A stretch of 64,000 bases of DNA from an archaeon (GCA_028279705.1 JANQNF010000005.1:2688-66687); one strand, 5' to 3'. Counted from the first letter of the stretch, positions 7,623 to 64,000 are shown. A program made the numbers and translations. The notes: generated from the letters alone by a model not told the origin.

Positions 7623-7797
7623 TTATATGTACGATGACAACGAGTGTGATCTTTTTGACAAACTCAAAGAAGTATTGGCAAGCATCGGAGTGGAGGTCGA
7701 GATGGTTGACCCCGATCCACCAGATCTGGAATCGTTAACCATGGAATTCACAAACACACTAGTCGAGGACAACCAGCAGATCGAGCCAGTCGGATGA
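7600..7797 (+). CDS. Hypothetical small acidic protein
   Basis: RBS AGGAGG 7 nt upstream of ATG 7600. 65 aa. Stop overlaps the next start. Confidence 0.35.
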   Translation: MQRSVTVDYMYDDNECDLFDKLKEVLASIGVEVEMVDPDPPDLESLTMEFTNTLVEDNQQIEPVG

Positions 7798-10060: not shown

Positions 10061-11098
10061 ATGACAACTAGAACCGAACCAGACCTGCGACACCTAGACT
10101 TCCTAGAAAGGGTAGCAGGGCTCGACGTGAACCAAGTTGAAGAGAAGGACCGCAGCTACGGAGGTAGTTGGAAGCGTCGTGGCGGAGTCGGCGTCTTTAT
10201 GATGCTTGCTCGCAAGTGGGACCGGCTTGAAAACATGATGGCCAATCCTCAGGCTCTGGTAGCTGGTCCTAAACATCCAACCAAAGAACAAGGCGAACAC
10301 GAGTGCTTCCTATGGGACAAGTACGATATCATAGGGGCCATAGAATCCCAGATCACTAGAGGTCAAGTTCCTGGTGATGCCCCAGACGGTACGGTCCTGG
10401 CCGAAGTCCGCGACCTGCGCCGTTACCTGTTACTGTTGGAGGCCGAGCTACTCAGCCGCGACCATACTCAAAACGCCAATCCCCATGTCGTTCGAGCTAT
10501 GGAAAGATTAGAAAAGGAAGGCACTGTTGTAGGGGAGGATGCTGTCACCCTGATGCAAAGTCAAGCTGTTGGGAGAAGGGTAGAAGCAGTTCAAGCTTCA
10601 GGATCTAGAACCCATCAGACTGATCATCAATATCGGGTTCAGCAATTCATGGAAAAAGCAGGTCAGGAGATTCCTGACCAACCTACCATCCCTGACTTCG
10701 AAGTACGCAAGCTACGTGCAAGGCTGATCTTCGAAGAAGCAATGGAAACCATTGAGGCGATGGGAATTTCCATACGCCATCACATAGTCCACTCTAATAA
10801 CGAGATTTGGTTGGACTCATTCCATAGCACCTACCGGGTCGAGTTTCTCAATAAGGGGGAATGCGTTATCGAGGACGTTGCCGACGGTTGTGCGGATCTG
10901 TCTGTTGTCAACGAAGGTACGTTACTGGCCTTCGGTATCCGGGACAACCCACTACTACAAGAAGTGGACGAAGCCAACCTACGCAAGTTCCGGGGGGATG
11001 CTCACAGGGACGAAGGGGGTAAGTGGATCAAGCCTTCGGACTGGCAACCACCTAACATCGCCAAAGTATTGGAGGACCAAGGATATGACCCTACCTGA
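10061..11098 (+). CDS. Tandem MazG-like all-alpha NTP pyrophosphohydrolase
   Basis: Two MazG-like segments (SYGGSWKRRGGVGVFMMLARKWDRLE; EVRKLRARLIFEEAMETIEAM...EDVADGCADLSVV with the E..AD..L signature). Confidence 0.55.
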   Translation: MTTRTEPDLRHLDFLERVAGLDVNQVEEKDRSYGGSWKRRGGVGVFMMLARKWDRLENMMANPQALVAGPKHPTKEQGEHECFLWDKYDIIGAIESQITRGQVPGDAPDGTVLAEVRDLRRYLLLLEAELLSRDHTQNANPHVVRAMERLEKEGTVVGEDAVTLMQSQAVGRRVEAVQASGSRTHQTDHQYRVQQFMEKAGQEIPDQPTIPDFEVRKLRARLIFEEAMETIEAMGISIRHHIVHSNNEIWLDSFHSTYRVEFLNKGECVIEDVADGCADLSVVNEGTLLAFGIRDNPLLQEVDEANLRKFRGDAHRDEGGKWIKPSDWQPPNIAKVLEDQGYDPT

Positions 11099-14139: not shown

Positions 14140-14598
14140 ATGGATAGCTTTCACGGTCTTAACGGGTTCAAGTTGGATTACTATCCGGCGTTTCAACCAC
14201 AGCAATATGCAAACTACACCCCTTCCTCAGCCTCATCTAGTGAGTTCTATGAATCGATGGAGAAGGCTAGAAGACGTATGCAAGAGTTGAAAGCAGGTGA
14301 GAGATACTACATTGAGAGCCACTGCTTCATGCTTCTTAATGAATCTACTATGAGATCCTGGCAGCTACGCATCCATCATCTTACACCAGAACCTAGATGT
14401 GCCTGTCCATTTAATTTCCTGAACGAATACGACAGATGGTTCGAGTGGCAGAAGTTGGTTCAGTTTGAAAGGATGAACACCTTGGAAGCAGCAGTTAAGG
14501 TGACCGGAGTTACCAGGATCTGGGTTATCGAACCTCCCAGGTTCGATCCCCTGTCCGTGATGAGACAACCTTTATGGAGCCCTAAGAATGATGACTGA
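14140..14598 (+). CDS. Hypothetical protein
   Basis: 152-aa ORF; ATGA overlap with the next gene. Confidence 0.45.
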   Translation: MDSFHGLNGFKLDYYPAFQPQQYANYTPSSASSSEFYESMEKARRRMQELKAGERYYIESHCFMLLNESTMRSWQLRIHHLTPEPRCACPFNFLNEYDRWFEWQKLVQFERMNTLEAAVKVTGVTRIWVIEPPRFDPLSVMRQPLWSPKNDD

Positions 14599-15102: not shown

Positions 15103-15552
15103 ATGGGAATGATAACCGTGAGACTACCCGATACCAAGCACGAAGGTATCAAACTGGCAGCGGAGGACGCTGGCCTAAGTATGAATACTTGGTGCGTTCA
15201 AAAACTCTGCCAAGCCGCAGGAAAGTTTGTGCCTCCTGAACCCCAAGAGATCATTCTAGAAGGTGGTCCTCTGCACAACACTCTTCACCAGACCGAAGAC
15301 ATTGTCACTCATCTGGTACTAGACGAACCAGATCACTTGTACCAATTGAGGGCTGATGAAATTGCTAAGATCAGTCCCGTCCCACCGTTACGAAACCAGT
15401 ACACCTACAAAAGAAGTGGAGAACGCAAGCACAGGTATCCAGCAGAAGGTACAAGAGTTCTAACCCCCATTTTCAAATTCATCTCAGTGAACGTTATTAC
15501 CAATGATGCAGATCTTTCCCCACAAAGTAGTGAACAAGATTCACTGCGGTAA
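15103..15552 (+). CDS. Ribbon-helix-helix (HicB/Arc-like) DNA-binding protein with C-terminal extension
   Basis: RBS GAGGAA then ATG 15103. ITVRLPDTKHEGIKLAAEDAGLSMNTWCVQKL is an RHH signature. Confidence 0.5.
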   Translation: MGMITVRLPDTKHEGIKLAAEDAGLSMNTWCVQKLCQAAGKFVPPEPQEIILEGGPLHNTLHQTEDIVTHLVLDEPDHLYQLRADEIAKISPVPPLRNQYTYKRSGERKHRYPAEGTRVLTPIFKFISVNVITNDADLSPQSSEQDSLR

Positions 15553-16363
15553 CTGTGCCCACGTACTCCGTAAGATGGTCCCAGACCAAGTCATTGATCT
15601 CACAGTCACCAGCCCACCGTATGACGATCTCCGTGCTTACGAGGGGTTCAAGTTTGACTGGCGTAGTATCATCAAGCAACTATGGCGAATTACCAAGATC
15701 GGCGGAGTTGTGGTCTGGGTCGTGGCTGATCAAGTAGAAGACGGTAGTGAGACTGGAACCAGTTTCCAACAAGCTATCTTCTTCCAAGCTGTAGGCTTCA
15801 GACTCCACGACACTATGATCTATCGTCGGGCTCCCAGGTTCCCAGACGTTATCCGCTATCCTCAGTGGTTTGAGTATATGTTCGTGTTCAGTAAGGGACC
15901 ACCCAAAACGTTCAATCCTATTTGTGACCGCAAGAACACTACAGCCGGGACTAAGGGAGGCAACAGACGCCGCGATCCTAAGACCGGTGAAGTTGTAGGC
16001 ACAGGCCAAGAGAAGAACGTTCGTAAGGACTACGGAGCACGTGAGAATATATGGACTTACCTAGCAGGTAGTGCCGAGAGTGAAGACCTGGGACATCCAG
16101 CTAAGTTCCCTGATCAGCTTGCTATGGATCACATCCTAAGCTGGTCTGATCCTGGCGACCTTGTCCTAGATCCTATGTGTGGTAGCGGCACGACCTGTGC
16201 TATGGCCAAGAAAGCCGGGCGCGAATACGTAGGTATTGACATTAGTGAGAACTACTGCCAGATTGCTCGTGGTACAGTGGAGTCTCACCAACTAGCTGCC
16301 GAGTTCGAGACCGGCACACCTTCCTCCCAGAGAAAGCCAATAGGCGGAAAAGGATTACTATGA
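15503..16363 (+). CDS. Beta-class DNA methyltransferase (N6-adenine or N4-cytosine)
   Basis: Motif IV DLTVTSPPY precedes motif I DPMCGSGTT (permuted beta-class order). Confidence 0.8.
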   Translation: MMQIFPHKVVNKIHCGNCAHVLRKMVPDQVIDLTVTSPPYDDLRAYEGFKFDWRSIIKQLWRITKIGGVVVWVVADQVEDGSETGTSFQQAIFFQAVGFRLHDTMIYRRAPRFPDVIRYPQWFEYMFVFSKGPPKTFNPICDRKNTTAGTKGGNRRRDPKTGEVVGTGQEKNVRKDYGARENIWTYLAGSAESEDLGHPAKFPDQLAMDHILSWSDPGDLVLDPMCGSGTTCAMAKKAGREYVGIDISENYCQIARGTVESHQLAAEFETGTPSSQRKPIGGKGLL

Positions 16364-41901: not shown

Positions 41902-43539
41902 ATGAGTGAACAAGAAACCAAACGAATGGCTGAAGCTCTCTTAAATGAGGACAGTTACGTTAATGGGGCGTCCAATGGACACGTTCAAGAAGAGCCTGCG
42001 CTGAACATGCGTGATATGGCTTTTCTTTTGAATGAGGTCTTCACATCCCGAACCAAGCTCATGGATAACCTGTTCGACTCCCGTCGAGACATTGATACTG
42101 AGTGCGGTTACCCAAAAACAATCACAGCCGAACAGTTCCGTACTATGTACGAGCGGAACGGTATTGCTGAGCGGGTGGTCAATGTATACCCTGAGGAAAC
42201 TTGGGGGATGGATCCCGTTGTCAAAGAAAATGACAAGGTCAAGGAAACGGACTTTGAGAAAAGCTGGCGCGAGTTAGAGGAAGAGCTTGGCCTGTATGCT
42301 TTTATGGAACGGGCTGACGAACTCAGCGGTATCGGCCGATACGGGGTGATGTTGTTAGGCTTCGACGACGGTCGTGACCTTAAGGAACCGCTACCAGGAC
42401 TCAAGAAAGATGGAACGTTCAGGGAAAACAACAAACCGTTGAAGCTTCTATATGTGCGTACCTTCGATGAAGAATCAGCCAAGGTCAGTAAGTTCAATTC
42501 TGACAAGAACAATCCTCGGTACGGATATCCTGAGGAATACGATATCAAGTTCTTGGAGTACAGTGCTGAACAAACTTCAGAAGGCGGAGAGGCTGTTACA
42601 ACCCAACAGAAAGTCCACTGGAGTCGTATCATCCATATAGCAGACAACCGCAAGAATAGCGAAGTGTTTGCTACCCCCCGACAACAGCCTGTATGGAACC
42701 GGCTGTACGATATTCGTAAGATGTTGGGCGGTTCGGGTGAGATGTACTGGCGTGGAGCATTCCCAGGCATCAGTCTAGAAACGATGCCCGGCTTTGAAGA
42801 TGCTAAGATCGATACAACCACGACCAAGGAACGTATGCAAGACTATATGAACGGTCTTCAGCGTTATATGCTCAATATCGGTATGACTGCCAAGTCACTA
42901 CCCCCGCAAGTGGAAAGTCCTCGAGACTTCTTACTGGTACAACTCCAAGCCATCACAATCACAATCAAAGTTCCGTTGCGTATCTTCTTGGGTAGCGAGG
43001 CCGCGCAATTAGCTTCAGGGCAGGATACCCGTAACTTCAATCGGAGGATTAAACGACGTCAACACAAATACGTAAGCCCGTTTATCATCAAACCATTTGT
43101 TGAACGGCTTATCCAAGTCAAAGCAATTATTGCTCCTTCCGAAACAACAGAGGGAGGCCGACCTAAATTTGAAGTAGACTGGCCTGATATTGATGTTCCT
43201 ACTGAAAAGGACCAAGCAGAGATTGGTGACAAGTGGGCAGCAGCTTTGCAGAAGTACGTTACTTCAGGAATTGAAAAACTCGTGCCCCCACTCGAGTTCC
43301 TTACAATGTTCCTCGGTGTTCCTAAAGACCGGGCCAAAGTCATTGTAGACACGGCTAAGAAGAACAAAGAAAAAGACAAATTAACTGTTGATCCTGCGCC
43401 GGACCCTTCTAACGAGGGTGGTCAGTTTGATCCAGATGGAAACAAAGCTGCAAACATGGGTCAGCGAAACGACAAGAAGAATGCAAGCAAGAAAGATGTA
43501 AGCAAACTTCCTGGCGACAAGAAAGTAGACGCAACATAA
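41902..43539 (+). CDS. Putative portal protein
   Basis: 545 aa; position after the terminase; acidic/basic C-terminal tail. No motif-level proof. Confidence 0.55.
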   Translation: MSEQETKRMAEALLNEDSYVNGASNGHVQEEPALNMRDMAFLLNEVFTSRTKLMDNLFDSRRDIDTECGYPKTITAEQFRTMYERNGIAERVVNVYPEETWGMDPVVKENDKVKETDFEKSWRELEEELGLYAFMERADELSGIGRYGVMLLGFDDGRDLKEPLPGLKKDGTFRENNKPLKLLYVRTFDEESAKVSKFNSDKNNPRYGYPEEYDIKFLEYSAEQTSEGGEAVTTQQKVHWSRIIHIADNRKNSEVFATPRQQPVWNRLYDIRKMLGGSGEMYWRGAFPGISLETMPGFEDAKIDTTTTKERMQDYMNGLQRYMLNIGMTAKSLPPQVESPRDFLLVQLQAITITIKVPLRIFLGSEAAQLASGQDTRNFNRRIKRRQHKYVSPFIIKPFVERLIQVKAIIAPSETTEGGRPKFEVDWPDIDVPTEKDQAEIGDKWAAALQKYVTSGIEKLVPPLEFLTMFLGVPKDRAKVIVDTAKKNKEKDKLTVDPAPDPSNEGGQFDPDGNKAANMGQRNDKKNASKKDVSKLPGDKKVDAT

Positions 43540-44898: not shown

Positions 44899-45459
44899 GT
44901 GAGAAATCTGTTTGTTGCGATTATCGCAAGTTTGATGTTCGTTCCGTGTGTAAGCGGTCAAGATGATCTACTGGCAAAAGAACTCGACAGTATTGAAGCT
45001 CAATACAACGAGAGCCAGGAACAGTCCAAGGAAGATAACTCAACCCTCAAGAAAGTCAGTACACCAATCCCACAGGAGGAAGCCGCTCAAGGTACGTTCC
45101 ACCGTACTGTGATCAAAGCAGCTAGGAACAAAGTCAAGTCCGGCGAACTCAGCCGACGGGACTTCATGCGCCTTCGTATTGCCATGATGTCTCCGGCCTT
45201 CCGGGCGCACGCGGAAGACTTTGCCGTCATCCAAATGGCGTTTTCCGATTCGGAGAATGTTCCTGTTACAGAAGACGGTGGAGTTGACCGGACTGCAATT
45301 GACTGGGACGCAATTATTGCGTTCATTGAGAAGTTGATCCCACTGCTGATTCAGATCATCGACATATTTTCACAGATGGGAATGGACACGTCCCACCTGT
45401 ATGACACGCTTCATGCTTGTCTTTTCACTTTGGATCACGCTAAGGCACAGCAAGGATGA
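44899..45459 (+). CDS. Secreted hypothetical protein (GTG start)
   Basis: Signal peptide MRNLFVAIIASLMFVPCVSG. RBS GGAAGGAG. Confidence 0.5.
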   Translation: MRNLFVAIIASLMFVPCVSGQDDLLAKELDSIEAQYNESQEQSKEDNSTLKKVSTPIPQEEAAQGTFHRTVIKAARNKVKSGELSRRDFMRLRIAMMSPAFRAHAEDFAVIQMAFSDSENVPVTEDGGVDRTAIDWDAIIAFIEKLIPLLIQIIDIFSQMGMDTSHLYDTLHACLFTLDHAKAQQG

Positions 45460-46481
45460 TCATCATGTGTAACGAACGTTTAACAATTGAGGAGCTCACA
45501 CAAGACCAGCTCCTACGTGTAAGAACGTGGGAAGACCAGTCTGGTGTACAGGTCCTGGAACTTGAGCGCAACGAAAATGATAAGCTCAGACCTACCCTTA
45601 TCAACGGAAGACAAGTTGATCGTGACGGGTGGCGCGAGGTTGTCAGAATCGGTAATCGTTCTTGCACAGGAACTATTGTCGGCCGGAATGCAGTAATCAC
45701 TGCTGCTCATTGTGGTCGTAATAACAGCCGGAGCACTCTAGAAGTGTTCAAGGACGGTTCACTAGTCCGGTACAACTACCGAATGTTCCATCATCCCCGT
45801 TATCGTGGGCAATCGAACTGGGACATTGCAGTGTTAGCGCTGGACAACGATATCGAGGACGTCTTCTACGCGATTGCTGGAGTCAACTACAACTTCAGGC
45901 AAGGAGCAGAAGTTGACATTCTCGGTTACGGGTGTACGCGACCAGGAGGTGGAGGAGGAAACGATGGCATCCTTCGCTTCGGTGAATCACGAGTTGTGAA
46001 TTTCACTGGAACGGATGTTATCACATCCCACCGTCCTAGCGGAGCGGCTCTTTGCTTTGGTGACAGCGGTGGTCCAATGTTCGCGGACACGTCCGACGCT
46101 TCATTGGAAGACCACAATACGCTAATTGCGGTCAACAGCAAAGGTAACATCCGTGACACGAACTACAATCTACGGCTAGACTATGATGGTGTCGGTGAAT
46201 GGTTGGAGTCAATTGCGAATGCCCGTGATCTGGAAATCTACGGGGTCAATGCTCAACCTGATGAGCCAGATCCCAACCCGGATCCAGACCCAGATCCTGA
46301 TCCAAACCCAGATCCACAGGACCCGTGCGAAGTCTGGGCTCAACTCGCCAAGCAACACCGGGAAACTGCTTTGTACTGGGAGCGTCAAGCTGAGAAGTAC
46401 GAACAGATGTCCGGCAATGGTTGCGGCGGCGACAAACCAAATCCACCGAACGATCCAAGTGATGATCTGTTCGGGCTTTAA
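45456..46481 (+). CDS. Trypsin-like (S1 family) serine protease with C-terminal Pro-Asp-rich linker
   Basis: His motif TAAHCG, Ser motif GDSGGPMF, then a PDEPDPNPDPDPDPDPNPDP run. Ends in DDLFGL. Confidence 0.75.
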   Translation: MIIMCNERLTIEELTQDQLLRVRTWEDQSGVQVLELERNENDKLRPTLINGRQVDRDGWREVVRIGNRSCTGTIVGRNAVITAAHCGRNNSRSTLEVFKDGSLVRYNYRMFHHPRYRGQSNWDIAVLALDNDIEDVFYAIAGVNYNFRQGAEVDILGYGCTRPGGGGGNDGILRFGESRVVNFTGTDVITSHRPSGAALCFGDSGGPMFADTSDASLEDHNTLIAVNSKGNIRDTNYNLRLDYDGVGEWLESIANARDLEIYGVNAQPDEPDPNPDPDPDPDPNPDPQDPCEVWAQLAKQHRETALYWERQAEKYEQMSGNGCGGDKPNPPNDPSDDLFGL

Positions 46482-51066: not shown

Positions 51067-52137
51067 ATGGACTATATCTTGAATGGTCAAGGTTATGGGG
51101 GAGTCGCCCAGACTTTGATGAACAGCGGCTTTGACGTGAACGCACTGCGTCCGTGGAAGTCCAATGAGTGGGATCCTGAGGATCCTAATACTGACCAAAG
51201 AACGTTCCAGACTGTGACTCGTAACGGTAAACCACAAACGATCGTTACGAACGCGCCTGCAACGTTGAGAAAGGACGAGTGGAAACAACTCGACGAGGCA
51301 ATCGTTGAAGCCGCTCAGAAAGAAATGCGTGCCTATGGTGACTTGCTTGCCAACGGCTTGACCTATACCATCCCGAACGGACTTGGAAAGACCGTACTGG
51401 AAACGGAACGTCAAAGCGACCTGACCGATGCTGAAATGAGCATGGACGGTATCCGACGATCGGATGCGGACCGACCTCACTTCGACTTGGTCAACTTGCC
51501 CCTTCCGATTACCCACAAGGATTTCCACTTCACCGCTCGCCAACTTGCAACGTCCCGCGAACGCGGTGCGCCGCTGGATACGTCCACGGCTTCCCTCGCT
51601 GGTCGTAAGGTTGCTGAGTCCATTGAGAAACTGTATCTCGGTGAACTTTCCACCTACGCTTTCGGCGGCGGAACCATCTCGGGTCTGACGAACTTTGCCA
51701 GCCGATTGACCAAGACGCTGACTGCACCAACTTCGGCCAATCACGCTGTGACTGTGAACGAAGTCCTGGACATGCGTGATCTGGCCTACTTGGATAATCA
51801 CTACGGTCCGTTCATGCTTTACTGCTCTCCCGGCTGGGACCAGTACATGGACGAGGACTACTCCACGGCGAAGGGAAGCAACACCCTGCGAGAACGGCTG
51901 AAAGCCATTGACCAAATCCAGGATGTGCGAACCTTGCACTTCCTCAGTGACACTACGTTGCTGCTGGTCCAAATGACTTCGGACATTGTTCGTGCCGTTC
52001 GTGGTATGTCAATCACCACCGTCCAATGGCCAACGGAAGGTGGAATGATGCTGAACTACAAAGTCATGGCCATCGAGGTTCCACAACTTCGGGCAGACTT
52101 CAACAGTAACACTGGTATCGTCCACGGTTCTGTCTAA
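51067..52137 (+). CDS. Putative major capsid protein
   Basis: 356 aa. Position after the scaffold; strong terminator hairpin downstream (52601). Size fits an HK97-fold capsid protein. No motif proof. Confidence 0.55.
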   Translation: MDYILNGQGYGGVAQTLMNSGFDVNALRPWKSNEWDPEDPNTDQRTFQTVTRNGKPQTIVTNAPATLRKDEWKQLDEAIVEAAQKEMRAYGDLLANGLTYTIPNGLGKTVLETERQSDLTDAEMSMDGIRRSDADRPHFDLVNLPLPITHKDFHFTARQLATSRERGAPLDTSTASLAGRKVAESIEKLYLGELSTYAFGGGTISGLTNFASRLTKTLTAPTSANHAVTVNEVLDMRDLAYLDNHYGPFMLYCSPGWDQYMDEDYSTAKGSNTLRERLKAIDQIQDVRTLHFLSDTTLLLVQMTSDIVRAVRGMSITTVQWPTEGGMMLNYKVMAIEVPQLRADFNSNTGIVHGSV

Positions 52138-56481: not shown

Positions 56482-59187
56482 ATGGCATTCGAACTTGAAA
56501 AGCTGATCATCCGCCTTCACGGGGATACCAAGCAGTTCAAGACTGAGATGCGTAAAGCTTCGCGCATCATGGACCAAGCTGCGGATTCCTTCGTAGCTGC
56601 TGGTAAGAGAATGACCATCGCCGTATCAGCTCCTCTAGTAGCTATCGGCGCTGCATCCACAAAAGCCTTTGCTGACTTCGATTCTAACATGACGAAGTCG
56701 GCTGCTATCATGCGTGGGCTTACAGGTGAGATGCGTCAGGATATGGAAGATCTGGCCACGGTCATGTCTGATCAAGGCATCCGGTCTGCTTCAGAATTGG
56801 CCGAGGCCTACTTCTTCCTGACATCTGCTGGTTTGAGTACTGAAGAGTCTTTGGCTGCTTTGCCATTGATGACTGAATTCTCAACCGCTGGTATGTTCAG
56901 TCTAGCCCATTCCACTGACTTGGTCACTGACGCCTTTTCAGCTTTGGGCTTCAAGACTGGAACCACAGCAGAGCAAATGGAAAAGATGCGTCGCGTAGCT
57001 GATACGCTTACTGAAGCTAACATGCTCGCGAATGCTACGGTTGAACAATTCTCCATCGCGCTTACCACGAGAGCGGGAGCCGCGATGAAAGCATATAATA
57101 TCGAGGTTGAGGAAGGAGTAGCCGTTCTAGCGGCTATGGCTGACCAAGGGGTTAAGGCTCAACGTGCTGGTACTGAGTTTGACCGCCTTTTGAGGTTGAT
57201 GGCTAAATCAACACTCAAGAATACTGAAGCCCACAGGAAGTACGGCTTTGCTGTATTTGATGAGACGACTGGTAAGATCCGCAAGATGGCAGACATTGTT
57301 GCCAACCTTGAACAGATTACATCCAAGTTGTCAGACACTCAACGTACAGCAGCGCTGGATGCTATGGGCTTCGATGCACGTGTCCAACAAGTGATTCTTC
57401 CACTGTTGGGAACCAGCGAGGCTATCCGTGAGTATCACTCTGAGATGGTTCGTATGCAGGATACGACCCGTGAAGTTTCTGAGAAACAATTAACTTCATT
57501 CGCATCTCAAATGAAGATCCTCCGGAACCAGATACAAAATACCGGAAGAGTTGTAGGGGAAGTTCTGGCCCCATTCCTACAACAACTTACCAAACTCTTA
57601 GCCGACGCAGGGAACGAGTTCCGTAAACTACCTAGATGGATCCAAACCGTATTCATAGCTCTAGGTGTGATCGTAGCTACTGTAGGTCCGCTCCTAGTTA
57701 TGTTGGGAGCTCTAGGAGGAATCATTGCAGGCGTATCAGCAGGACTCAATGTGCTGGCTGTAATCCTTGGTGGTCCTCTGGCCATAGCGTTCCGCACCGC
57801 TGCAATTGCTAACGCGCTATTTAATTCTTCTCTTCGTACTACTGCGGTTCTTCTAGCTGCTTTCGTAGCATTCAAAGTAGGGGAAAGAATCGGTAAGGAA
57901 CTGGCAGAAGCTTTCTTTGGAGCTGAAAGCGGTGCCCGTGCTTTACAGGATCGCATAGACAGACTCAAAGGATTGAACGTAGGTACTATCGCGTTCCAAG
58001 AACGTAACAACATGATAACCAAAACTAATTTGGACCAGATCAAAGACCTTGAAAGGAGAACTGTAGAATACGCAGAAGCAATCAAGTTGGCTGAAAGCAA
58101 CCTTAGAGGACTGGAGTCTAGAGCTAGTGGTACTGCAAGGATGATCGAAGACATGCAGACCTACCAAGGACCTCCGGGTGGTATCTTCTCCTTGCTAGGT
58201 TTGGAAGACTGGTTGGTTAAGACCACCAAACTCCACCGCACAACCGCCGACTTTGAAGCAGAACTTCAAGCACTTAACCAGCAAATCATAAGCCAACAAA
58301 CAGATGTTGAAGGGTTGAAGGATGAGTACTCGAGACTCCAAAATCAGTTGGCTATGCTCGAAGAGCTGATTGACCAAGAGTTGAAGGAAGACATAGAACA
58401 ACTGACCCTTCGTATGAAGGACCAGATTGCAACCTTTGGTATGTCTTCCAATGCTGCTGAAATCTATAGGTTGCAACAGCGAGAGGCTGGTAAGGCTGAT
58501 ATCTTACGACTGCAAGCCTTGAACCTGATGATCGAAGCCCAAGAACGAAATCAGAAAGCTATGGAGGATGCGGCTGAAAAGACCGCAATGATAAACAAGG
58601 AAGGCCGCGACCAAGTAAAACAAATGGAACAACAGGTAAGGTTCTTCCACCTTACAGCCCGACAAGCTCGTATTGCTGAACTCGCTGAAAAGGGAGTGCG
58701 TAGAAGCCGTATCGAAGCGATGAAGCAATTAGACAGAGAGCTAACTCTGTTGGAAAAACGTAAGCAACTAATGGAACGAGGTAAGCAACTCACCAAGCAG
58801 ATGCTGACCCCAACAGAACAGCTCAGAGCCCTACAACAAGAACTCAAGGAACTACTAGAAGCTGGAGCAATCAACTGGACTACCGCTGAACGAGCTGTGC
58901 GTGACTTCGTAGAAAACATGCAGGACGAAGAAATCAAACTCAAAGTTTCTGTAGAAGGTGTTGAAGCTGTTGAAGCTGGTTCAATCGAAGCCTTGACCCG
59001 TTTGCAAGGATTCCAAATCAATGCTCCTGGCGCTACTACAGGAACCGCAAGTAAGACTACAAATGTTAGCGACGACCCACAGTACAAAGAAACTATGAAG
59101 AACCTGTTTGAGTCTGTGGAAGAAGCCGTACAGGAAATGGTAGCTAACGGAACATTGTTAACTGTTGCTGGATTGTCGAGGTTCTAA
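56482..59187 (+). CDS. Tail tape measure protein
   Basis: 901 aa, alpha-helical and Ala/Leu/Gln-rich. Central hydrophobic segment VFIALGVIVATVGPLLVMLGALGGIIAGV. Confidence 0.8.
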   Translation: MAFELEKLIIRLHGDTKQFKTEMRKASRIMDQAADSFVAAGKRMTIAVSAPLVAIGAASTKAFADFDSNMTKSAAIMRGLTGEMRQDMEDLATVMSDQGIRSASELAEAYFFLTSAGLSTEESLAALPLMTEFSTAGMFSLAHSTDLVTDAFSALGFKTGTTAEQMEKMRRVADTLTEANMLANATVEQFSIALTTRAGAAMKAYNIEVEEGVAVLAAMADQGVKAQRAGTEFDRLLRLMAKSTLKNTEAHRKYGFAVFDETTGKIRKMADIVANLEQITSKLSDTQRTAALDAMGFDARVQQVILPLLGTSEAIREYHSEMVRMQDTTREVSEKQLTSFASQMKILRNQIQNTGRVVGEVLAPFLQQLTKLLADAGNEFRKLPRWIQTVFIALGVIVATVGPLLVMLGALGGIIAGVSAGLNVLAVILGGPLAIAFRTAAIANALFNSSLRTTAVLLAAFVAFKVGERIGKELAEAFFGAESGARALQDRIDRLKGLNVGTIAFQERNNMITKTNLDQIKDLERRTVEYAEAIKLAESNLRGLESRASGTARMIEDMQTYQGPPGGIFSLLGLEDWLVKTTKLHRTTADFEAELQALNQQIISQQTDVEGLKDEYSRLQNQLAMLEELIDQELKEDIEQLTLRMKDQIATFGMSSNAAEIYRLQQREAGKADILRLQALNLMIEAQERNQKAMEDAAEKTAMINKEGRDQVKQMEQQVRFFHLTARQARIAELAEKGVRRSRIEAMKQLDRELTLLEKRKQLMERGKQLTKQMLTPTEQLRALQQELKELLEAGAINWTTAERAVRDFVENMQDEEIKLKVSVEGVEAVEAGSIEALTRLQGFQINAPGATTGTASKTTNVSDDPQYKETMKNLFESVEEAVQEMVANGTLLTVAGLSRF

Positions 59188-60158
59188 TGGCTGGCAAAAT
59201 AGAAGGACGAACAGGCTGGTCAGTCCGTAGAACGGATAACGGTCATCGTAATTACTCAGTCAAGCACAAGATTGAAACGACTGATGAAGAAGACGGTCCA
59301 GCAATTGTACTATCAACAGTTGGATTACCCACTGTTGGAAGTGTCTGGGGTTACGGTAACGACCTAGACTCATGGGCATTCTGTCTACCTGAAGCCGAAG
59401 TTAAATTCCTTGGTAAACAAGAAGCCTCTTGCTGGTGGGAAGTGACAAACCACTTCTCAACAGAACCGCAGGAACGATGCCAAACAACTGAGATTGAAAA
59501 CCCGTTAGATGAACCTGACCGGGTTGGTGGAAGTTTTACCAAACTCAAAAAGCAAGCTAAGGTTGACCGCAATGATAAACCCATTGCAAACAGCAGCCAT
59601 GAACTATTCACAGGCTCGGCAACCGAGGTTGATGATAGCCGACCTACGGTGTTAATTGGGAAAAACGTCAGCAGTCTTCCACTAGTCACATTTGCATCTA
59701 TGATTGACACGGTGAACGATGCGACACTGTGGGGTATGGCAGCTAGAACAATCAAGCTGACCAACGTCAACTGGCAAAGAAAACTGTATGGAGTTTGTAC
59801 CTACTACTATATCGTCGAGTATGAGTTTGAAATAAACGCCAACACGTTTGACAAGACTTTGCTAGACATTGGTACAAGGGTTCTAAAGGGGAAGTGGGTT
59901 GATAACAGTTGGGTTGGTCTAGACCCTGATGAAGTCCCAACTGAGAATAACCCGAAGAACCTTAAGAACAGCCAGATCGCAAGCAACTTCATTCAGTACA
60001 AAGACGAAACCGGTCAATTCGGTGGAGACGGAAAGGTGCTTCTCGATGGGAAAGGAAGGCCGCTACAGGATCCGAACGACGACGCTATCACCCTTGGCCC
60101 TTTTGAATACTATCCAGAATCAAACTTCCTGCTGCTCAACATCCCAACCAGCTTATAG
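59187..60158 (+). CDS. Hypothetical distal tail protein
   Basis: 323 aa; ATGG overlap with the tape measure gene. Confidence 0.55.
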   Translation: MAGKIEGRTGWSVRRTDNGHRNYSVKHKIETTDEEDGPAIVLSTVGLPTVGSVWGYGNDLDSWAFCLPEAEVKFLGKQEASCWWEVTNHFSTEPQERCQTTEIENPLDEPDRVGGSFTKLKKQAKVDRNDKPIANSSHELFTGSATEVDDSRPTVLIGKNVSSLPLVTFASMIDTVNDATLWGMAARTIKLTNVNWQRKLYGVCTYYYIVEYEFEINANTFDKTLLDIGTRVLKGKWVDNSWVGLDPDEVPTENNPKNLKNSQIASNFIQYKDETGQFGGDGKVLLDGKGRPLQDPNDDAITLGPFEYYPESNFLLLNIPTSL

Positions 60159-60168
60159 TGAGTCAGAC

Positions 60169-60636
60169 ATGATCGCCAAGATATCAGGTCCGCCAACAAG
60201 AGAACGTGATAGGATTACTCTCAATCTTAATTTCTACCACGAACGAATAGGGGAAAGCCCAACCCCTCACCAAATCAGCTTTGCACAACTGCTTGAAGGG
60301 ACCGACCAGCCATACTCCCGTGAATACAAAATCACAAAGGAATGGAAATCGCTTCCAATCCCTCTAGAGAAGGTTGGTTACATCATCGTCCAAAACTTGG
60401 TAGGCACCAACTACGAAACAATCCCGAGTGATGCTCAAATCGCCACTGACGACAAACGAATTGTTGAACTTACCAGTTCACGAGACGGCGGGTTCTTACC
60501 AAACGATCCCGGAGGCACGCAGCTTATTCCTCCCAGAGGATTGTACGTGGGACAGATGAGTGCTGATTGGGAAGACGTTATGTTCCGCACCCAAGAAGGT
60601 ACAGCGATAATCAACCTTTCTGTGTATCCAAAGTAA
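60169..60636 (+). CDS. Hypothetical tail protein
   Basis: ATG 60169 (MIAKISGPP); 155 aa. Confidence 0.5.
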   Translation: MIAKISGPPTRERDRITLNLNFYHERIGESPTPHQISFAQLLEGTDQPYSREYKITKEWKSLPIPLEKVGYIIVQNLVGTNYETIPSDAQIATDDKRIVELTSSRDGGFLPNDPGGTQLIPPRGLYVGQMSADWEDVMFRTQEGTAIINLSVYPK

Positions 60637-60637
60637 G

Positions 60638-62617
60638 ATGCCATCAAAACTCTATGCTCTTTCCGAAGCGGAACGGGATCTCGTTGAAAAGGCGCTACAG
60701 AAGTTAGCCAAGATCCCTGAGCCTCAGGATACAGAACCAACTCAGCCGCAACCTGGGATTAAGGCAGATGATGTTTATCTAGCCTATCCTCCTTGCGACC
60801 AGTCTATCCCTGCGATGATAGGCGAAGTCCCAGGAGCTATGGAATGTTGTATCTTCCTACTGCACTACGGTGATGATCCCAATGACCCAGAGCAGAGGGA
60901 AATCACACCTATTCTGCTAGGTAAGGACGAAGATGGTAAACCTATTCATATGCGTGAGTGGGTTTATAACATCTATCCTGTTCCCTCGGATCGTAACCGT
61001 TACTTCCAAGTATGGCGTAGTAAGGGTGGATTTTTCTTCTGTGAACGTCCTTCAGGACATAACCAGGAACAAGACACTACTACAACCACAACGTCAACGA
61101 CCACAACTACAATAGAACCGGAACCACAATCATGTGAGGGATTCTGTGAATGGCAATGGAACGACTCCACGAGGACGTGGAATAAGATCGATGATAATTG
61201 CAGCACGACCACATCAACTACTACCACGTCCACCACGATTATCGGTTCCACAACGACGACTACTGAATGCCCTTGTCCGGTTGAGGATAAGTCAACATCG
61301 ACGACGACCACAACAACGTTAGCTCCTCCACCTGAGTGTAACTGCTTGTGGCCTGACTTCTGCGGAACAAACAACGGAGAGATCACATACACGAACTGTG
61401 CTTACGATGCAGATACCGATCCTCCAATTTGCACCACGACAACGACTACATCATGTAACTGCAATACAACCACAACCAGTGAAGTACCTAACTGTGATCC
61501 AGCTTGTGAATGGGTTTGGATTCCACCGGGGCGATGGTGGCCTGTACCTGGGACTCTTCAGTGCCGTAACAAGATTCACTGTAATCCTTGCCCACAGCCT
61601 TCAACGGCTGGTGGTTTCTACTGTGATGAAGACACTACAAATTGTACCATAAAGGATGATCCGCCCCCTCCACCACAGCGATGTAACGATTCTTGCGAAT
61701 GGTGGTGGATACCACAAGTGCAGTCCTGGATTAGGATGACTAACAATTGCAACCCTGCATTGATCAATTGCTATTGTGATCCACCTAGTGACCCACCATC
61801 CAACAACAATGATTGTGTTCCAACTCACACACCTTGCACACTGCACGGCGGAGGGACAACTACTACTCAGGATCCATGCCATCCTTGTTATTCAACAACC
61901 ACGACAACCACTACTGGTGAACCTTCTTGCCAAGCTGAGTGTCGCTGGTTCTGGAACGGAGTAACATGGAACCTGATCACCAACGACTGCCCTACTCGTT
62001 GTCCATGTCCAGACCCTGTGTGGAATGGTACAGTATTCGGGGAAACCACAACCACTGAATGTAGCGATTTTCCAACTACTAGCACAAGTTCAACAACCAC
62101 TACAGCAACTCCAACCGGAGCCTGCTGTGTGCCTGAAATCAAGGATCCATTCAGATGCTTGGATAATATTACCCAGACAAGCTGTGAAGATGTTCTGGGA
62201 GGAACATATCAAGGCGATGGTAGCACATGTCCTGCTGACTGTGGACCTACCTGTGATCCACGACCTTGTAGGTGGGAGTGCATCAACGGACGATGGATAG
62301 AAAATCCACAAGACCAATGTGGAACGTTTGTACCGTGTCACTGTAAGCAACCTCCTGGATTCCCAATATGCCTAGACAATGGTTCTGAGATCTGGATGAC
62401 CTGTGAAGACGGGTTCGGATCCTACGCATCAACGTATGGAGGTTCGGGAACCAAAGCAATCCGTAAAGTTCCTAGGATCATTGTCACCAACAAGATTAAG
62501 ACTCCGGGTGTTCTTAATCAAGACATCACAGTTACGGTTCCTGCGATATCTGTACAACCGATAACCGTTATTCCACCTACTGTACTAGGCGGTGGACAAC
62601 AAGTAGGAGGAAGCTAA
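60638..62617 (+). CDS. Tail fibre / receptor-binding protein with poly-Thr linkers and repeated Cys/Trp-rich modules
   Basis: 659 aa. Modules CEWQWN, CEWVWIPPGRWW, CEWWWIPQVQSW, CRWFWNGVTWN and CRWECINGRWIE, separated by Thr/Ser runs such as TTTTTSTTTTT. Confidence 0.7.
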   Translation: MPSKLYALSEAERDLVEKALQKLAKIPEPQDTEPTQPQPGIKADDVYLAYPPCDQSIPAMIGEVPGAMECCIFLLHYGDDPNDPEQREITPILLGKDEDGKPIHMREWVYNIYPVPSDRNRYFQVWRSKGGFFFCERPSGHNQEQDTTTTTTSTTTTTIEPEPQSCEGFCEWQWNDSTRTWNKIDDNCSTTTSTTTTSTTIIGSTTTTTECPCPVEDKSTSTTTTTTLAPPPECNCLWPDFCGTNNGEITYTNCAYDADTDPPICTTTTTTSCNCNTTTTSEVPNCDPACEWVWIPPGRWWPVPGTLQCRNKIHCNPCPQPSTAGGFYCDEDTTNCTIKDDPPPPPQRCNDSCEWWWIPQVQSWIRMTNNCNPALINCYCDPPSDPPSNNNDCVPTHTPCTLHGGGTTTTQDPCHPCYSTTTTTTTGEPSCQAECRWFWNGVTWNLITNDCPTRCPCPDPVWNGTVFGETTTTECSDFPTTSTSSTTTTATPTGACCVPEIKDPFRCLDNITQTSCEDVLGGTYQGDGSTCPADCGPTCDPRPCRWECINGRWIENPQDQCGTFVPCHCKQPPGFPICLDNGSEIWMTCEDGFGSYASTYGGSGTKAIRKVPRIIVTNKIKTPGVLNQDITVTVPAISVQPITVIPPTVLGGGQQVGGS

Positions 62618-62619
62618 TC

Positions 62620-63087
62620 ATGGCCAGCTTGGTATACACACAAGCTCTAATGGAGATGATGGATGGGACCATCGATATTGATACAGACACCATCAAGTGT
62701 ATGTTGGTTGAAGATGGTTACGTCCCAGACCAGGATGACACTGTAATCGATGACGGGGGCGGTAATGACCCCATTGATCACGAGATCAGCGTCTCAGGAT
62801 ACACCGGAGGATTTGGTGGAGCCGGTCGTAAGACTGTGTCCATTGCTCTCACAGCTAACGATACCAACAACAGAGTTGACATTGGTATTGAAGCCGATCT
62901 CACTTGGTCATCGTTGGGCGCAGGAGCCACAATCGCCGGTGCAATTCTGGTCAAAGAAATCACAAACGATACGCTATCAAGGCTTATCGCTTACTTCGAT
63001 GTTAACGACTTTGCTACTACGGGTGGAGACTACACGTTAGATTTCACACCGTCAGCCAGCGGAGGCAATATTCAATTCCCGCTTTAA
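62620..63087 (+). CDS. Hypothetical protein
   Basis: 155 aa; Asp/Gly/Thr-rich. Confidence 0.5.
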   Translation: MASLVYTQALMEMMDGTIDIDTDTIKCMLVEDGYVPDQDDTVIDDGGGNDPIDHEISVSGYTGGFGGAGRKTVSIALTANDTNNRVDIGIEADLTWSSLGAGATIAGAILVKEITNDTLSRLIAYFDVNDFATTGGDYTLDFTPSASGGNIQFPL

Positions 63088-63138
63088 TCTAGATGCGAAC
63101 TGGATGGTTGGCCAGTTCTAAAACTAATTGGAGGACAT

Positions 63139-64000
63139 TATGAAACTCACAATAGGTATGGCAACCTATCAGGACTACGACGGTCTTCACTTCACCGTCC
63201 AAAGTCTTAGGATGCACAGTAAGATCCACGAGGATGACAACGTTGAGTTGTTAGTCGTGGACAACTGTCCATCTCACAAGGATGCCTCACGCATCAAGCA
63301 ACTCACTGAGTGTACTAATCACGGAGGAAAAATCCGTGGCCGGTACATTCCAATGGAAACACCCGTCGGAACTTCTGCGCCTCGGCAAAGAATTTTCGAT
63401 GAAGCTGAAGGAGACGTGGTGCTCTGTATGGACAGCCATGTCCTCCTTCCAACCGATACACCATCGCGTCTCCTTCACTTCTTTAGTGAGAACCCAGACA
63501 CCCCGAACCTGTATACCGGTCCAATGATCTATGACGGAATGGGTATGATGTCTACCCACTTCGATATGATCTGGCGGTCCGAGATGTGGGGGATCTGGGC
63601 ACATGCTTGGAGATGCAAGTGTGGTCATCCTTTCACAGTGATTAACCCTGAAGATATTGGCAAAGACGATGACAAGCCAATACAATTCCACAGCCTGGAG
63701 TTTGAGGTTAAAAACCACAGACGCAAACGCTGTGCCGAATGTTACCAGCCGTTCCCTGTCAACATCCGTTGGCCAGGACACCAACAAATCCTGAAGCAGA
63801 AGTTCGGGTACACACAAGCTGGTTGGACCGACGACGAACCTATCTTTAAGATCCCTGCTATGGGGTTAGGTTTATTCACCTGCCGGAAAGACGCTTGGCT
63901 CGGGTTCCTTGAAGGTCACAGAATGTTCGGTGGTGAAGAAGGGTACATACATGAGAAGTATGAACAAGCCGGGCACTCTACATTCTGTTTACCGTGGCTC
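63139..64000 (+). CDS. GT2-family (GT-A fold) glycosyltransferase; 3'-truncated by the window end
   Basis: RBS GGAGGA then ATG 63139. KLTIGMATYQDYDGLHFTVQSL start, VVDNCPSHKD and CMDSHV (DxD-like) motifs. Open to the end of the window. Not in the ORF track. Confidence 0.65.

What the first reader, a model, noticed from the sequence alone, without database searches (positions are those of the whole stretch)
60638..64000. Mucin-like tail fibre with novel Cys/Trp-rich repeats adjacent to a GT2 glycosyltransferase: candidate fibre O-glycosylation system
The 659-aa fibre alternates poly-Thr/Ser linkers (up to 11 consecutive T/S) with at least five ~25-aa modules built around C-(E/R)-W-x-W. These are likely disulfide-stabilised carbohydrate-binding knobs and do not resemble any family I recognise. 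Two genes downstream, a GT-A/GT2 enzyme (VVDNC...DSH motifs) is encoded within the tail module. Phage-encoded glycosyltransferases that O-glycosylate Ser/Thr-rich virion proteins are known in a few actinophages. The arrangement here suggests the same strategy, or alternatively host-receptor or LPS modification.
Basis: partly seen in the sequence, partly recalled or inferred. Interest (0 to 1): 0.7.

Follow-up and report, generated by a model that had tools for sequence, protein, structure and literature searches.

The report
Mucin-like phage fibre with its glycosyltransferase
An uncultured phage, probably of Planctomycetes, encodes a tail protein with mucin-like poly-threonine stretches, followed closely by an enzyme whose nearest structural relatives are the animal enzymes that start mucin glycosylation; this gene pair recurs in hundreds of viral contigs, so the phage very likely sugar-coats its own fibre.

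Summary
Window 60638-62617 encodes a 659-aa protein (Thr 15.6%, Cys 7.9%) with ten T/S runs of up to 12 residues. It has four significant 23-aa C-x3-C-[ER]-W-x-W hairpin modules and a fifth degenerate one. No Pfam, PHROG, PDB or cultured-phage match was found. Two genes downstream a GT2 starts at 63140 and is cut by the window end. On the full contig it is 688 aa: a GT-A domain, an O-methyltransferase domain and a helical Cys domain.

The glycosylation reading is strongly supported by computation but not proven.
- With the GT as bait, 63 of 70 viral loci have a Thr/Cys-rich ORF directly upstream.
- With an upstream tail protein as bait, the poly-Thr extension and the full-length GT are both present (19) or both absent (23). 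No locus is discordant, but this needs only about three evolutionary events.
- No protein of the module has a transmembrane segment.
- A second GT-A usually follows.
- Genome hits point to Planctomycetota hosts.

Carbohydrate binding by the modules is untested. I rate this a new variant of phage virion glycosylation, interest about 0.72.

The parts
56482..59187 (+). Tail tape measure protein (901 aa); marks the start of the distal tail module
   Evidence: PF10145 E 1.5e-24; phrog_1533 E 1.2e-62
59187..60158 (+). Conserved 323-aa tail protein ('p323'), used as the independent bait
   Evidence: Same position in all loci read. Alignment A4 retrieved 119 IMG/VR loci. No Pfam or PHROG hit.
60169..60636 (+). 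155-aa tail-module protein. The 235-aa ORF listed from 59929 is an over-extension into the previous gene.
   Evidence: Gene call on the full contig, L001 9532-9999; syntenic 146-163-aa genes in L002, L003 and the P0016 locus
60638..62617 (+). Mucin-like Thr/Cys/Trp-rich tail fibre or tip protein, 659 aa (P0001)
   Evidence: 95 homologues share the same composition. Near-invariant Cys and positionally conserved poly-Thr linkers. It is the only ORF in the window with T/S runs.
60638..61072 (+). N-terminal globular domain of the fibre (aa 1-145); inferred tail-attachment domain
   Evidence: Conserved at the N-terminus of at least 50 homologues. pLDDT about 90 for aa 45-140. Also present at this position in poly-Thr-less relatives, as part of proteins of 168-731 aa (mostly 170-310 aa) with ordinary composition. 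No significant PDB fold match; weak OB-fold-like hits only.
61073..62137 (+). Mucin-like region (aa 146-500): poly-Thr/Ser linkers alternating with Cys/Trp modules; inferred substrate of O-glycosylation
   Evidence: T/S runs at aa 147, 189, 204, 219, 266, 277, 407, 419, 470 and 480. Mixed Thr codons. Linkers modelled as disordered, pLDDT below 50.
61133..61201 (+). Module 1 (aa 166-188), CEGFCEWQWNDSTRTWNKIDDNC
   Evidence: Module HMM domain E 5.7e-10; beta-hairpin E169-175/E180-186, pLDDT 92-94
61493..61564 (+). Module 2 (aa 286-309), CDPACEWVWIPPGRWW...
   Evidence: Module HMM E 1.1e-5; hairpin E290-295/E299-302
61682..61750 (+). Module 3 (aa 349-371), CNDSCEWWWIPQVQSWIRMTNNC
   Evidence: Module HMM E 1.8e-8; hairpin E352-358/E363-369
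61928..61990 (+). Module 4 (aa 431-451), CQAECRWFWNGVTWNLITNDC
   Evidence: Module HMM E 2.9e-8; hairpin E434-439/E444-449, pLDDT 90-93
62267..62320 (+). Degenerate fifth module (aa 544-561), CRWECINGRWIENPQDQC
   Evidence: Not significant with the module HMM (E 0.77), but modelled as hairpin E544-549/E552-555 with pLDDT about 90
62620..63087 (+). 155-aa gene inserted between fibre and GT (phrog_644, function unknown); not a conserved part of the module
   Evidence: phrog_644 E 2e-14. Absent from all other loci. 34% identity to phiCbK gp075, which lies next to a lectin-like giant protein.
63140..64000 (+). First 287 of 688 residues of the GT-A/O-methyltransferase/helical-domain protein (P0096; complete at L001 12503-14569)
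63431..63439 (+). D98-S-H100, a DxH metal-binding motif in place of DxD
   Evidence: Invariant in alignment A2 and in all roughly 300 family members aligned. hhalign aligns it to D209-A-H211 of GalNAc-T1. DxH is described as confined to GT27 and GT60 (PMC7185993).
63926..63940 (+). F263-G-G-E-E267, the counterpart of the WGGEN Gal/GalNAc-T motif. The putative C-terminal metal-binding His (W289-x-H291-x-F) lies just beyond the window end.
   Evidence: Invariant. hhalign aligns FGGEE to WGGEN and WNHKF to VGHVF. In homologue P0180 this region gives a weak PF02709 hit (E 0.063).

Best explanation
This is a self-contained virion-glycosylation module of a siphovirus that probably infects Planctomycetota.

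The 659-aa protein is the distal tail fibre or tip protein. It has a conserved N-terminal domain that anchors it to the tail. This is followed by a mucin-like stalk in which disordered poly-Thr linkers alternate with small beta-hairpin modules (C-x3-C-x-W-x-W...W...C) held by Trp packing and disulfides.

The fibre is made in the cytoplasm; it has no signal peptide. There the soluble enzyme encoded next to it acts on it late in infection. Its GT-A domain resembles polypeptide GalNAc-transferases in fold and in the DxH, GGE(E/N) and C-terminal His motifs. I infer that it transfers a first sugar, probably a HexNAc, from a nucleotide sugar onto the hydroxyls of the poly-Thr runs. A second small GT-A (L001 15239-15973) would extend the glycan. 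The O-methyltransferase domain fused to the first GT would methylate a sugar. The C-terminal helical Cys domain is tied to the tail module in general and may dock the enzyme on the fibre or help oxidise its many Cys.

The result would be a stiff, protease-resistant, hydrated 'bottle-brush' fibre.

What is shown: the gene anatomy, the conserved pairing, the joint presence or absence, the catalytic motifs and the structural similarity. What is inferred: the acceptor, the sugar, the order of reactions, the disulfides and the benefit.
For: Pairing with the GT as bait. At least 578 IMG/VR loci encode a relative. Of the best 80, 70 have at least 3 kb upstream, and 63 of those have a Thr/Cys-rich ORF ending less than 1.6 kb upstream. 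Three more have it immediately downstream, and four narrowly miss my thresholds.

Pairing with an independent bait (tail protein p323). Among unique proteins, 19 have both the poly-Thr/Cys extension and the full-length GT, 23 have neither, and none is discordant (Fisher 2e-12).

Pairing with an unrelated carrier. In L245 an unrelated 1254-aa tail protein has a C-terminal poly-Thr region and also sits directly upstream of a family member.

Pairing outside the clade. In the GTDB species genomes (nearly all metagenome bins), GT-only DxH homologues from other phyla have an adjacent same-strand Thr-rich ORF in roughly 40% of loci. The background is 8 of 1461 ORFs.

Unique substrate. The fibre is the only ORF with T/S runs in the window and in L001. 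The runs use mixed codons and keep their positions across homologues at 30-40% identity.

Enzyme.
- DxH, FGGEE and WxHxF are invariant in about 300 members.
- DxH is reported as specific to GT27 and GT60, the polypeptide Ser/Thr O-HexNAc transferases (PMC7185993).
- All of the Foldseek top 50 are ppGalNAc-Ts (E 1e-11, about 365 columns).
- hhalign against a GT27 alignment gives E 5.5e-4 and aligns all three motifs. The control against the neighbouring GT-A gives probability 1.3%.
- The methyltransferase domain matches family-3 O-methyltransferases, including sugar O-methyltransferases. Pfam RMNT_CmcI or Methyltransf_24 hits occur in up to 21 of 40 homologues (12 and 9, possibly overlapping).

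Other points. No transmembrane segment is present in the fibre, the GT, the 223-aa protein (p223) or the second GT-A (p244). The second GT-A (SpsA-like, E 5e-8, DDD motif) is present in 59 of 84 viral loci.
Against: - No glycan has been observed; everything is inferred from sequence and predicted structure.
- On a tree of p323 the joint trait needs only about three changes (one clade plus two nested losses). The perfect 2x2 table therefore reflects few independent events.
- Chromosomal paralogues in Schlesneria have no adjacent fibre, so the enzyme family can have other acceptors.
- The phage also carries a thymidine-hypermodification cluster, so another glycosyl acceptor is conceivable.
- The 'tail fibre' assignment rests on gene position only.
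Confidence: 0.62

Rival explanations
1. The GT and methyltransferase modify a host envelope glycan (lysogenic conversion, superinfection exclusion or receptor masking). The poly-Thr linkers are simply unmodified flexible spacers. The adjacency reflects a moron inserted at the end of the tail operon and then inherited with it.
For: Many phage GT2 enzymes do this (general knowledge). Copies lie in large Planctomycetota contigs, with an integrase near one of them, so lysogeny is likely. The joint presence or absence needs only about three events. Schlesneria chromosomal paralogues have no fibre neighbour.
Against: There are no transmembrane helices and no GtrA- or GtrC-like partners. The gene is on the same strand as, and usually within 100 nt of, the fibre gene in the late operon, across relatives only 33-43% identical. 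Both nested losses of the poly-Thr extension coincide with loss of the GT and methyltransferase domains. The pairing recurs with an unrelated poly-Thr carrier and with GT-only homologues outside the clade. The catalytic motifs are those of polypeptide transferases.
Confidence: 0.14
2. The GT glycosylates another phage target: the hypermodified thymidine of the phage DNA, or another virion protein such as the capsid or tail tube.
For: The window encodes a 5-hmdU DNA kinase, a thymidylate-synthase homologue and a radical SAM protein. Phage GTs that decorate DNA, and GTs that glycosylate capsid and tail-tube proteins of mycobacteriophages, are known (as cited in PMC12619734).
Against: The DNA-modification genes lie about 50 kb away in the replication module, whereas the GT is always next to the fibre. 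No other ORF in the window has T/S runs. The GT tracks the poly-Thr extension, not the phage backbone. The best structural relatives act on polypeptides.
Confidence: 0.08
3. The 688-aa protein is mainly a fibre assembly or chaperone factor, or a virion component. Its C-terminal domain does the essential job, and the enzymatic domains are accessory or inactive.
For: The C-terminal domain of about 100 aa is the only part found in poly-Thr-less relatives, where it lies just after the tail gene. In one homologue this position carries an Erv1/ALR sulfhydryl oxidase domain.
Against: All metal-binding and catalytic motifs are invariant in about 300 members, which argues for an active enzyme. The GT and methyltransferase domains are specifically gained and lost with the poly-Thr region.
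Confidence: 0.06

Closest known systems
Mucin-type O-glycosylation: polypeptide GalNAc-transferases (CAZy GT27) acting on PTS domains of mucins
   Different: Identity is only 15-20%. There is no ricin-type lectin domain, no membrane anchor and no secretory pathway, so the reaction would be cytoplasmic. The enzyme is fused to an O-methyltransferase and a helical Cys domain and carries a Cys4 insertion in the GT domain. The donor sugar is unknown. It occurs in phages and bacteria, whereas all the ppGalNAc-T homologues retrieved that carry an organism name are from animals.
Virion glycosylation in mycobacteriophages (Freeman et al. 2023, known to me only through its citation in PMC12619734)
   Same: Phage-encoded glycosyltransferases decorate the phage's own structural proteins.
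   Different: There the glycans sit on the C-termini of the capsid and tail-tube subunits. Here the candidate substrate is a mucin-like tail fibre. No homologue of this fibre or this GT exists in 50,697 cultured-phage records, which include mycobacteriophages. The host phylum also differs.
Chlorovirus PBCV-1 A064R, a multidomain GT + GT + methyltransferase that builds the capsid glycan (my knowledge; reviewed in PMC9614988 and PMC7019647, listed but not read)
   Same: A virus-encoded, cytoplasmic, multidomain enzyme that combines a GT-A domain with a sugar methyltransferase and acts on a virion protein.
O-glycosylated Thr/Ser/Pro linkers joining small disulfide-bonded carbohydrate-binding modules in fungal and bacterial cellulases (for example CBM1) (my knowledge)
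   Same: Small Cys- and aromatic-rich modules of about 25-35 aa are strung on poly-Thr/Ser linkers, which in cellulases are O-glycosylated and protease-resistant.
   Different: No sequence or fold match of the module to any CBM or other PDB entry was found. Those proteins are secreted, whereas this one is assembled in the cytoplasm. Carbohydrate binding by the phage module is untested.

Membership tests
Pfam Glycos_transf_2 (GT-A fold, GT2-like) | Match to PF00535 above the gathering score | tested here: met
   47.4 bits against a cutoff of 23.3 for the window fragment and 45.6 bits for the full protein; 40 of 40 homologues match
Pfam Glycos_transf_2 (GT-A fold, GT2-like) | Canonical DxD metal-binding motif | tested here: not met
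   The position is D98-S-H100 (DxH) in all of about 300 aligned members
CAZy GT27 polypeptide GalNAc-transferases | DxH motif, Gal/GalNAc-T motif (WGGEN) and C-terminal metal-binding His | tested here: met
   hhalign aligns DSH to DAH, FGGEE to WGGEN and WNHKF to VGHVF. All are invariant in the family. The significance of DxH and the C-His comes from PMC7185993.
CAZy GT27 polypeptide GalNAc-transferases | Closest three-dimensional similarity of the catalytic domain | tested here: met
CAZy GT27 polypeptide GalNAc-transferases | Family-level sequence similarity | tested here: inconclusive
   hhalign gives E 5.5e-4 but probability 30% and 20% identity over 193 columns. An HMMER profile search against PDB does not reach any GT27 chain.
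CAZy GT27 polypeptide GalNAc-transferases | C-terminal ricin-type lectin domain and type II membrane anchor (Golgi lumen) | tested here: not met
   No PF00652 hit in the query or in 40 homologues, although every complete animal enzyme has one. No hydrophobic segment is present (maximum KD19 0.82).
CAZy GT27 polypeptide GalNAc-transferases | Transfer of GalNAc from UDP-GalNAc to Ser/Thr of a polypeptide | not testable with these tools
   Needs an enzyme assay or glycoproteomics
Gtr-type O-antigen conversion (GtrA/GtrB/GtrC) | Membrane-anchored GT2 (GtrB) with flippase and serotype-specific GT partners | tested here: not met
   The GT has no transmembrane segment. Its neighbours are the fibre, a soluble second GT-A and methyltransferases.
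Class I SAM-dependent O-methyltransferase (family 3 / CmcI-like) | Rossmann-type methyltransferase fold and a family HMM match | tested here: met
Mucin / PTS domain | Long Thr/Ser/Pro-rich stretches that are densely O-glycosylated | tested here: inconclusive
   The composition criterion is met (T+S+P 32%, ten T/S runs). Glycosylation cannot be tested here.
Phage tail fibre / receptor-binding protein | Virion tail location and receptor binding | not testable with these tools
   Only positional evidence is available: it is the last large gene after the tape measure, with a conserved N-terminal domain and a variable distal part. There is no PHROG or fold match to known fibres.
Mycobacteriophage virion-glycosylation GTs | Homology to the GTs of cultured actinophages | tested here: not met
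   tblastn of the 688-aa GT and of the fibre against 50,697 phage records gave no match at E 1e-3

The most novel reading that the evidence does not exclude
Phages of Planctomycetota, and some bacteria, carry a prokaryotic, cytoplasmic counterpart of mucin-type O-glycosylation. It consists of a DxH polypeptide glycosyltransferase related to the eukaryotic GT27/GT60 enzymes, together with its own mucin-like substrate. This would mean that mucin-type polypeptide glycosyltransferases are not an exclusively eukaryotic invention, and that this phage lineage builds a true glycosylated 'mucin' as its host-contact organelle.
Probability: 0.3. Interest if true: 0.88.

Novelty: new variant of a known kind. 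Interest (0 to 1): 0.72.

Why it matters
Self-glycosylation of virions by phage-encoded enzymes has been shown experimentally in only a few cases that I know of, and in those the glycans sit on capsid and tail-tube proteins. Here the module is conserved and very widespread: more than 578 loci in IMG/VR and none among cultured phages. It pairs a mucin-like tail fibre with an enzyme that carries the catalytic signature of the animal enzymes that initiate mucin glycosylation.

If confirmed, four things would follow.
- It would give a tractable prokaryotic model and a source of soluble enzymes for mucin-type polypeptide glycosylation.
- It would bear on the origin of the GT27/GT60 clade.
- It would explain how an abundant, uncultured group of aquatic phages builds its host-recognition organelle.
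- It would add a new small disulfide/Trp hairpin module to the known repertoire of fibre building blocks.

It would also flag glycan shielding as a factor in phage-host recognition in Planctomycetota, for which I know of few if any characterised phages.

Tried and rejected
- blastn (distant mode) of the 7.9-kb region and tblastn of the fibre and of the GT against 50,697 cultured-phage records found nothing. The major capsid protein shows only 35% identity to Brevundimonas siphophages.
- Pfam, PHROG and NCBIfam gave nothing for the fibre, p323, the two 155-aa proteins (apart from phrog_644, function unknown) and p223.
- The search for related loci with the fibre alignment failed because no stretch was conserved enough. 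I used the GT and p323 as baits instead.
- Foldseek of the fibre model against PDB gave no significant match (best E 0.41, OB-fold-like).
- phmmer against PDB for the GT, p223 and the phrog_644 protein gave nothing useful.
- The idea that p223 is a sulfotransferase (from its 'CCPRSGS' motif) has no support. The gene is unique to this contig.
- A search for an Erv1-like sulfhydryl oxidase in the window and in all loci found it only in P0180.
- The NAD-epimerase seen in L003 is rare, occurring in three loci, so it is not a conserved part of the module.
- There are no tRNA genes in the window that could hint at the host.
- Literature searches found no description of this fibre family or of a GT27-like phage enzyme. 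The Freeman 2023 paper is not held.
- Cluster look-up gave no names or accessions.
- I rejected a DNA-level microsatellite origin for the poly-Thr runs because the codons are mixed.
- I rejected the antisense 130-aa poly-Val ORF (61000-61392) as a shadow of the fibre frame.
Full report
**1. The observation**

The 659-aa ORF at 60638-62617 (+) is real. Its composition is extreme: Thr 15.6%, Pro 11.4%, Cys 7.9% (52 residues) and Trp 3.2%. It has ten T/S runs of four or more residues, and the longest is 12.

C-[ER]-W-x-W occurs exactly four times. From the composition I calculate about 0.004 occurrences by chance. The full module is C-x3-C-[ER]-W-x-W-x4-6-W-x6-8-C. An HMM built from 129 instances in homologues has the consensus CSGTCKWRWNPTSGTWVLTSDGC. 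It scores four copies in the query as significant and the fifth (aa 544-558) as not significant.

The Thr runs use all four Thr codons in mixed order, so they are maintained at the protein level. No Pfam, PHROG or NCBIfam model matches the protein.

The surrounding genes are tail genes. The tape measure lies at 56482-59187 (PF10145, phrog_1533), followed by a 323-aa and a 155-aa gene and then the fibre. After the fibre comes a 155-aa gene (phrog_644). A GT2 then starts at 63140 (PF00535, E 2.7e-12) and runs off the window after residue 287.

**2. The full locus**

An exact look-up found the same genes on a 74.8-kb Logan contig, L001. There the GT is 688 aa. It is followed by a 223-aa gene and a 244-aa gene, after which the genes switch strand.

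**3. The fibre belongs to a large, unannotated family**

Ninety-five homologues were found. All are unnamed, with Thr 11-24% and Cys 4-11%, and most carry the module.

- The N-terminal domain of about 140 aa is conserved at the N-terminus of at least 50 of them.
- In a 30-sequence alignment the Cys are nearly invariant, and even the poly-Thr linkers keep their positions.
- AlphaFold (mean pLDDT 68.9) models the N-terminal domain and each module with confidence. Each module is a beta-hairpin that starts at the C-x-W-x-W strand. The linkers are modelled as disordered.
- Foldseek against PDB finds nothing significant.
- The module HMM hits 44 of 87 unique Thr/Cys-rich ORFs in the loci I collected, but only 1 of 1608 other ORFs.

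**4. The pairing with the GT is conserved**

In the four loci read first, a GT2 of about 650 aa directly follows the fibre.

I then used the GT alignment alone as bait in IMG/VR. At least 578 loci encode a relative. Of the best 80, 70 have at least 3 kb upstream.
- 63 of these have a Thr/Cys-rich ORF ending less than 1.6 kb upstream.
- Three have it directly downstream.
- Four narrowly miss my thresholds.

I also used the 323-aa tail protein as an independent bait. The fibre's N-terminal domain is found at the same position in all relatives. In many of them it belongs to a protein of ordinary composition, mostly 170-310 aa long. Among unique proteins with enough downstream DNA:
- 19 have both the poly-Thr/Cys extension and the full-length GT;
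- 23 have neither;
- none is discordant.

The honest caveat is that on a tree of the bait protein this pattern needs only about three changes: one clade plus two nested losses.

Two further observations widen the link.
- In L245 an unrelated 1254-aa tail protein with a C-terminal poly-Thr region also precedes a family member.
- In metagenome bins of other phyla, GT-only homologues often have a Thr-rich ORF next to them on the same strand. The frequency is roughly 40% of loci, against 8 of 1461 background ORFs. I did not verify that these small ORFs are real genes.

**5. What the enzyme is**

The AlphaFold model is confident (pLDDT 88.4). The protein has three parts.

The GT-A domain (aa 1 to about 330):
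- All of the Foldseek top 50 PDB matches are polypeptide GalNAc-transferases (E about 1e-11, about 365 columns).
- D98-S-H100, F263-GGEE267, H271 and W289-x-H291-x-F293 are invariant in about 300 viral and cellular members.
- A survey of GT-A enzymes states that replacement of DxD by DxH is confined to GT27 and GT60. These two families share polypeptide Ser/Thr O-glycosylation. The same survey states that a C-terminal His binds the metal in GT27 (PMC7185993).
- I retrieved authentic animal ppGalNAc-Ts, aligned them and ran hhalign. The result is E 5.5e-4, probability 30% and 193 columns, with DSH aligned to DAH, FGGEE to WGGEN and WNHKF to VGHVF. The control against the neighbouring GT-A family gives probability 1.3% over the N-terminal Rossmann part only.
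- HMMER against PDB reaches only generic GT2 enzymes.

I therefore call the domain GT27-like. I do not call it a GT27 member, because it lacks the lectin domain and the membrane anchor.

The middle domain (aa about 400-570) matches family-3 O-methyltransferases, including sugar O-methyltransferases. Pfam CmcI or Methyltransf_24 hits occur in homologues.

The C-terminal domain of about 100 aa is helical and carries conserved Cys. It is the only part of the protein found in poly-Thr-less relatives, where it stands alone or is fused to other proteins just after the tail gene. In one homologue (P0180) the corresponding C-terminal position is occupied instead by an Erv1/ALR sulfhydryl oxidase domain.

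**6. Other parts of the module**

The 244-aa gene downstream is a second GT-A. It is SpsA-like (E 5e-8), 10 of 25 members match PF00535, and it has a DDD motif. It is present in 59 of 84 viral loci.

The 223-aa gene and the phrog_644 gene are unique to this contig. None of these proteins has a transmembrane segment.

**7. Host**

The fibre, the GT and the 7.9-kb tail region have no match in cultured phages; the capsid protein has only a distant one.

In GTDB species genomes, full-length matches fall mostly in Planctomycetota. The taxa include Pirellulaceae, Pirellulales, Planctomycetaceae, Schlesneria, Thalassoglobus and Thermogutta. Several matches lie on contigs of 165-478 kb, and most have a Thr/Cys-rich ORF upstream. 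Schlesneria chromosomes carry paralogues without a fibre.

I infer a Planctomycetota host and a possible host origin of the enzyme. Bin contamination cannot be excluded.

**8. Interpretation**

The best explanation is a phage-encoded, cytoplasmic O-glycosylation of the fibre's poly-Thr linkers. The GT27-like enzyme would initiate it, the second GT-A would extend the glycan, and the fused methyltransferase would methylate it.

The rivals are host-glycan conversion, DNA or another virion protein as the target, and a purely chaperone role. Each is less consistent with the strict adjacency, the joint gain and loss, the lack of membrane segments and the invariant catalytic motifs. None of them is excluded without an experiment.

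The suggestion that the hairpin modules bind carbohydrate remains untested. They may equally be structural rivets.

**9. Novelty**

Virion glycosylation by phage-encoded enzymes is known in mycobacteriophages, on capsid and tail-tube C-termini (as cited in PMC12619734), and in chloroviruses. This case is a new variant in four respects: a mucin-like fibre substrate, a DxH enzyme resembling mucin-type transferases, a GT-methyltransferase fusion, and a new host phylum. I found no description of it in the literature searched.

Noticed in passing
window 4388-5275, 7794-8690, 8674-9825, 10061-11098, 15503-16363: A thymidine-hypermodification gene set in the replication module: 5-hmdU DNA kinase (PF18723, E 9e-51), a radical SAM/SPASM protein, a thymidylate-synthase homologue, a PRA-PH/MazG-like protein and an N6/N4 DNA methylase. 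The phage DNA is probably hypermodified.
   Followed up: partly
window 45456-46481: A trypsin-like (S1) serine protease (PF00089, E 1.6e-18) lies in the head module, between the portal (41902-43539) and the capsid gene (51067-52137). This is an unusual family for a prohead protease.
   Followed up: no
L245 6001-8100 (P0180) and L245 2234-5998: One family member has a C-terminal Erv1/ALR sulfhydryl oxidase domain (PF04777, E 1.5e-13) at the position of the usual helical Cys domain. It follows an unrelated 1254-aa tail protein with 56 Cys and a C-terminal poly-Thr region. This hints at enzymatic disulfide formation for these Cys-rich fibres. No Erv1 domain occurs in the window or in the other loci.
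   Followed up: partly
L001 about 14225-14569 (aa about 575-688 of the GT); for example L193 13436-13918 and L231 11425-11793: The C-terminal domain of the GT protein, about 100 aa with a CxC motif plus a further conserved Cys (DUF6171-like in some members), occurs alone or fused to other proteins just after the tail gene in relatives that lack poly-Thr, the GT and the methyltransferase. Its function is unknown; docking to the fibre or thiol chemistry are guesses.
   Followed up: partly
window 62620-63087: The 155-aa gene between the fibre and the GT (phrog_644) is absent from about 240 related loci. It is 34% identical to phiCbK gp075, which lies directly before a 'putative lectin-like domain protein'. 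It may be a mobile fibre-associated gene.
   Followed up: partly
L117, L124, L128, L130, L131, L136, L141, L142, L146, L147, L152, L153, L158 (GTDB loci): GT-only DxH homologues of about 330 aa, in metagenome bins of Chloroflexota, Thermomicrobiales, Gemmatimonadaceae, Bryobacterales and Proteobacteria, often have a small Thr-rich ORF (13-47% Thr) next to them on the same strand. I did not check whether these are genuine genes or prophage regions.
   Followed up: partly
window 63614-63742 (GT aa 159-201): A Cys4 insertion (C-K-C ... C-A-E-C), probably a zinc ribbon, interrupts the GT-A domain. It has no counterpart in the aligned ppGalNAc-T region. One homologue gives a weak Zn_Ribbon_TF hit.
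   Followed up: no
window 62408-62617 (fibre aa 591-659): The last 70 residues of the fibre are Val/Ile/Pro/Thr-rich with a Gly-rich end. They are not conserved in any of the 94 homologues and are modelled with low confidence. This could be a strain-specific receptor-binding tip.
   Followed up: no
L114 (Schlesneria sp. T3-172 chromosome), L094, L095, L099: Planctomycete chromosomes carry GT-methyltransferase paralogues (about 35% identity, DxH conserved) with no adjacent Thr-rich gene. In L114 the upstream gene is a Ser/Thr-kinase fusion. These may be the cellular source of the phage enzyme.
   Followed up: partly
window 59929-60636 and 61000-61392 (-): Two mechanical ORFs are not genes. The 235-aa ORF is an upstream over-extension of the real 155-aa gene, which starts at 60169. 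The antisense 130-aa poly-Val ORF is the shadow of the poly-Thr coding frame.
   Followed up: yes
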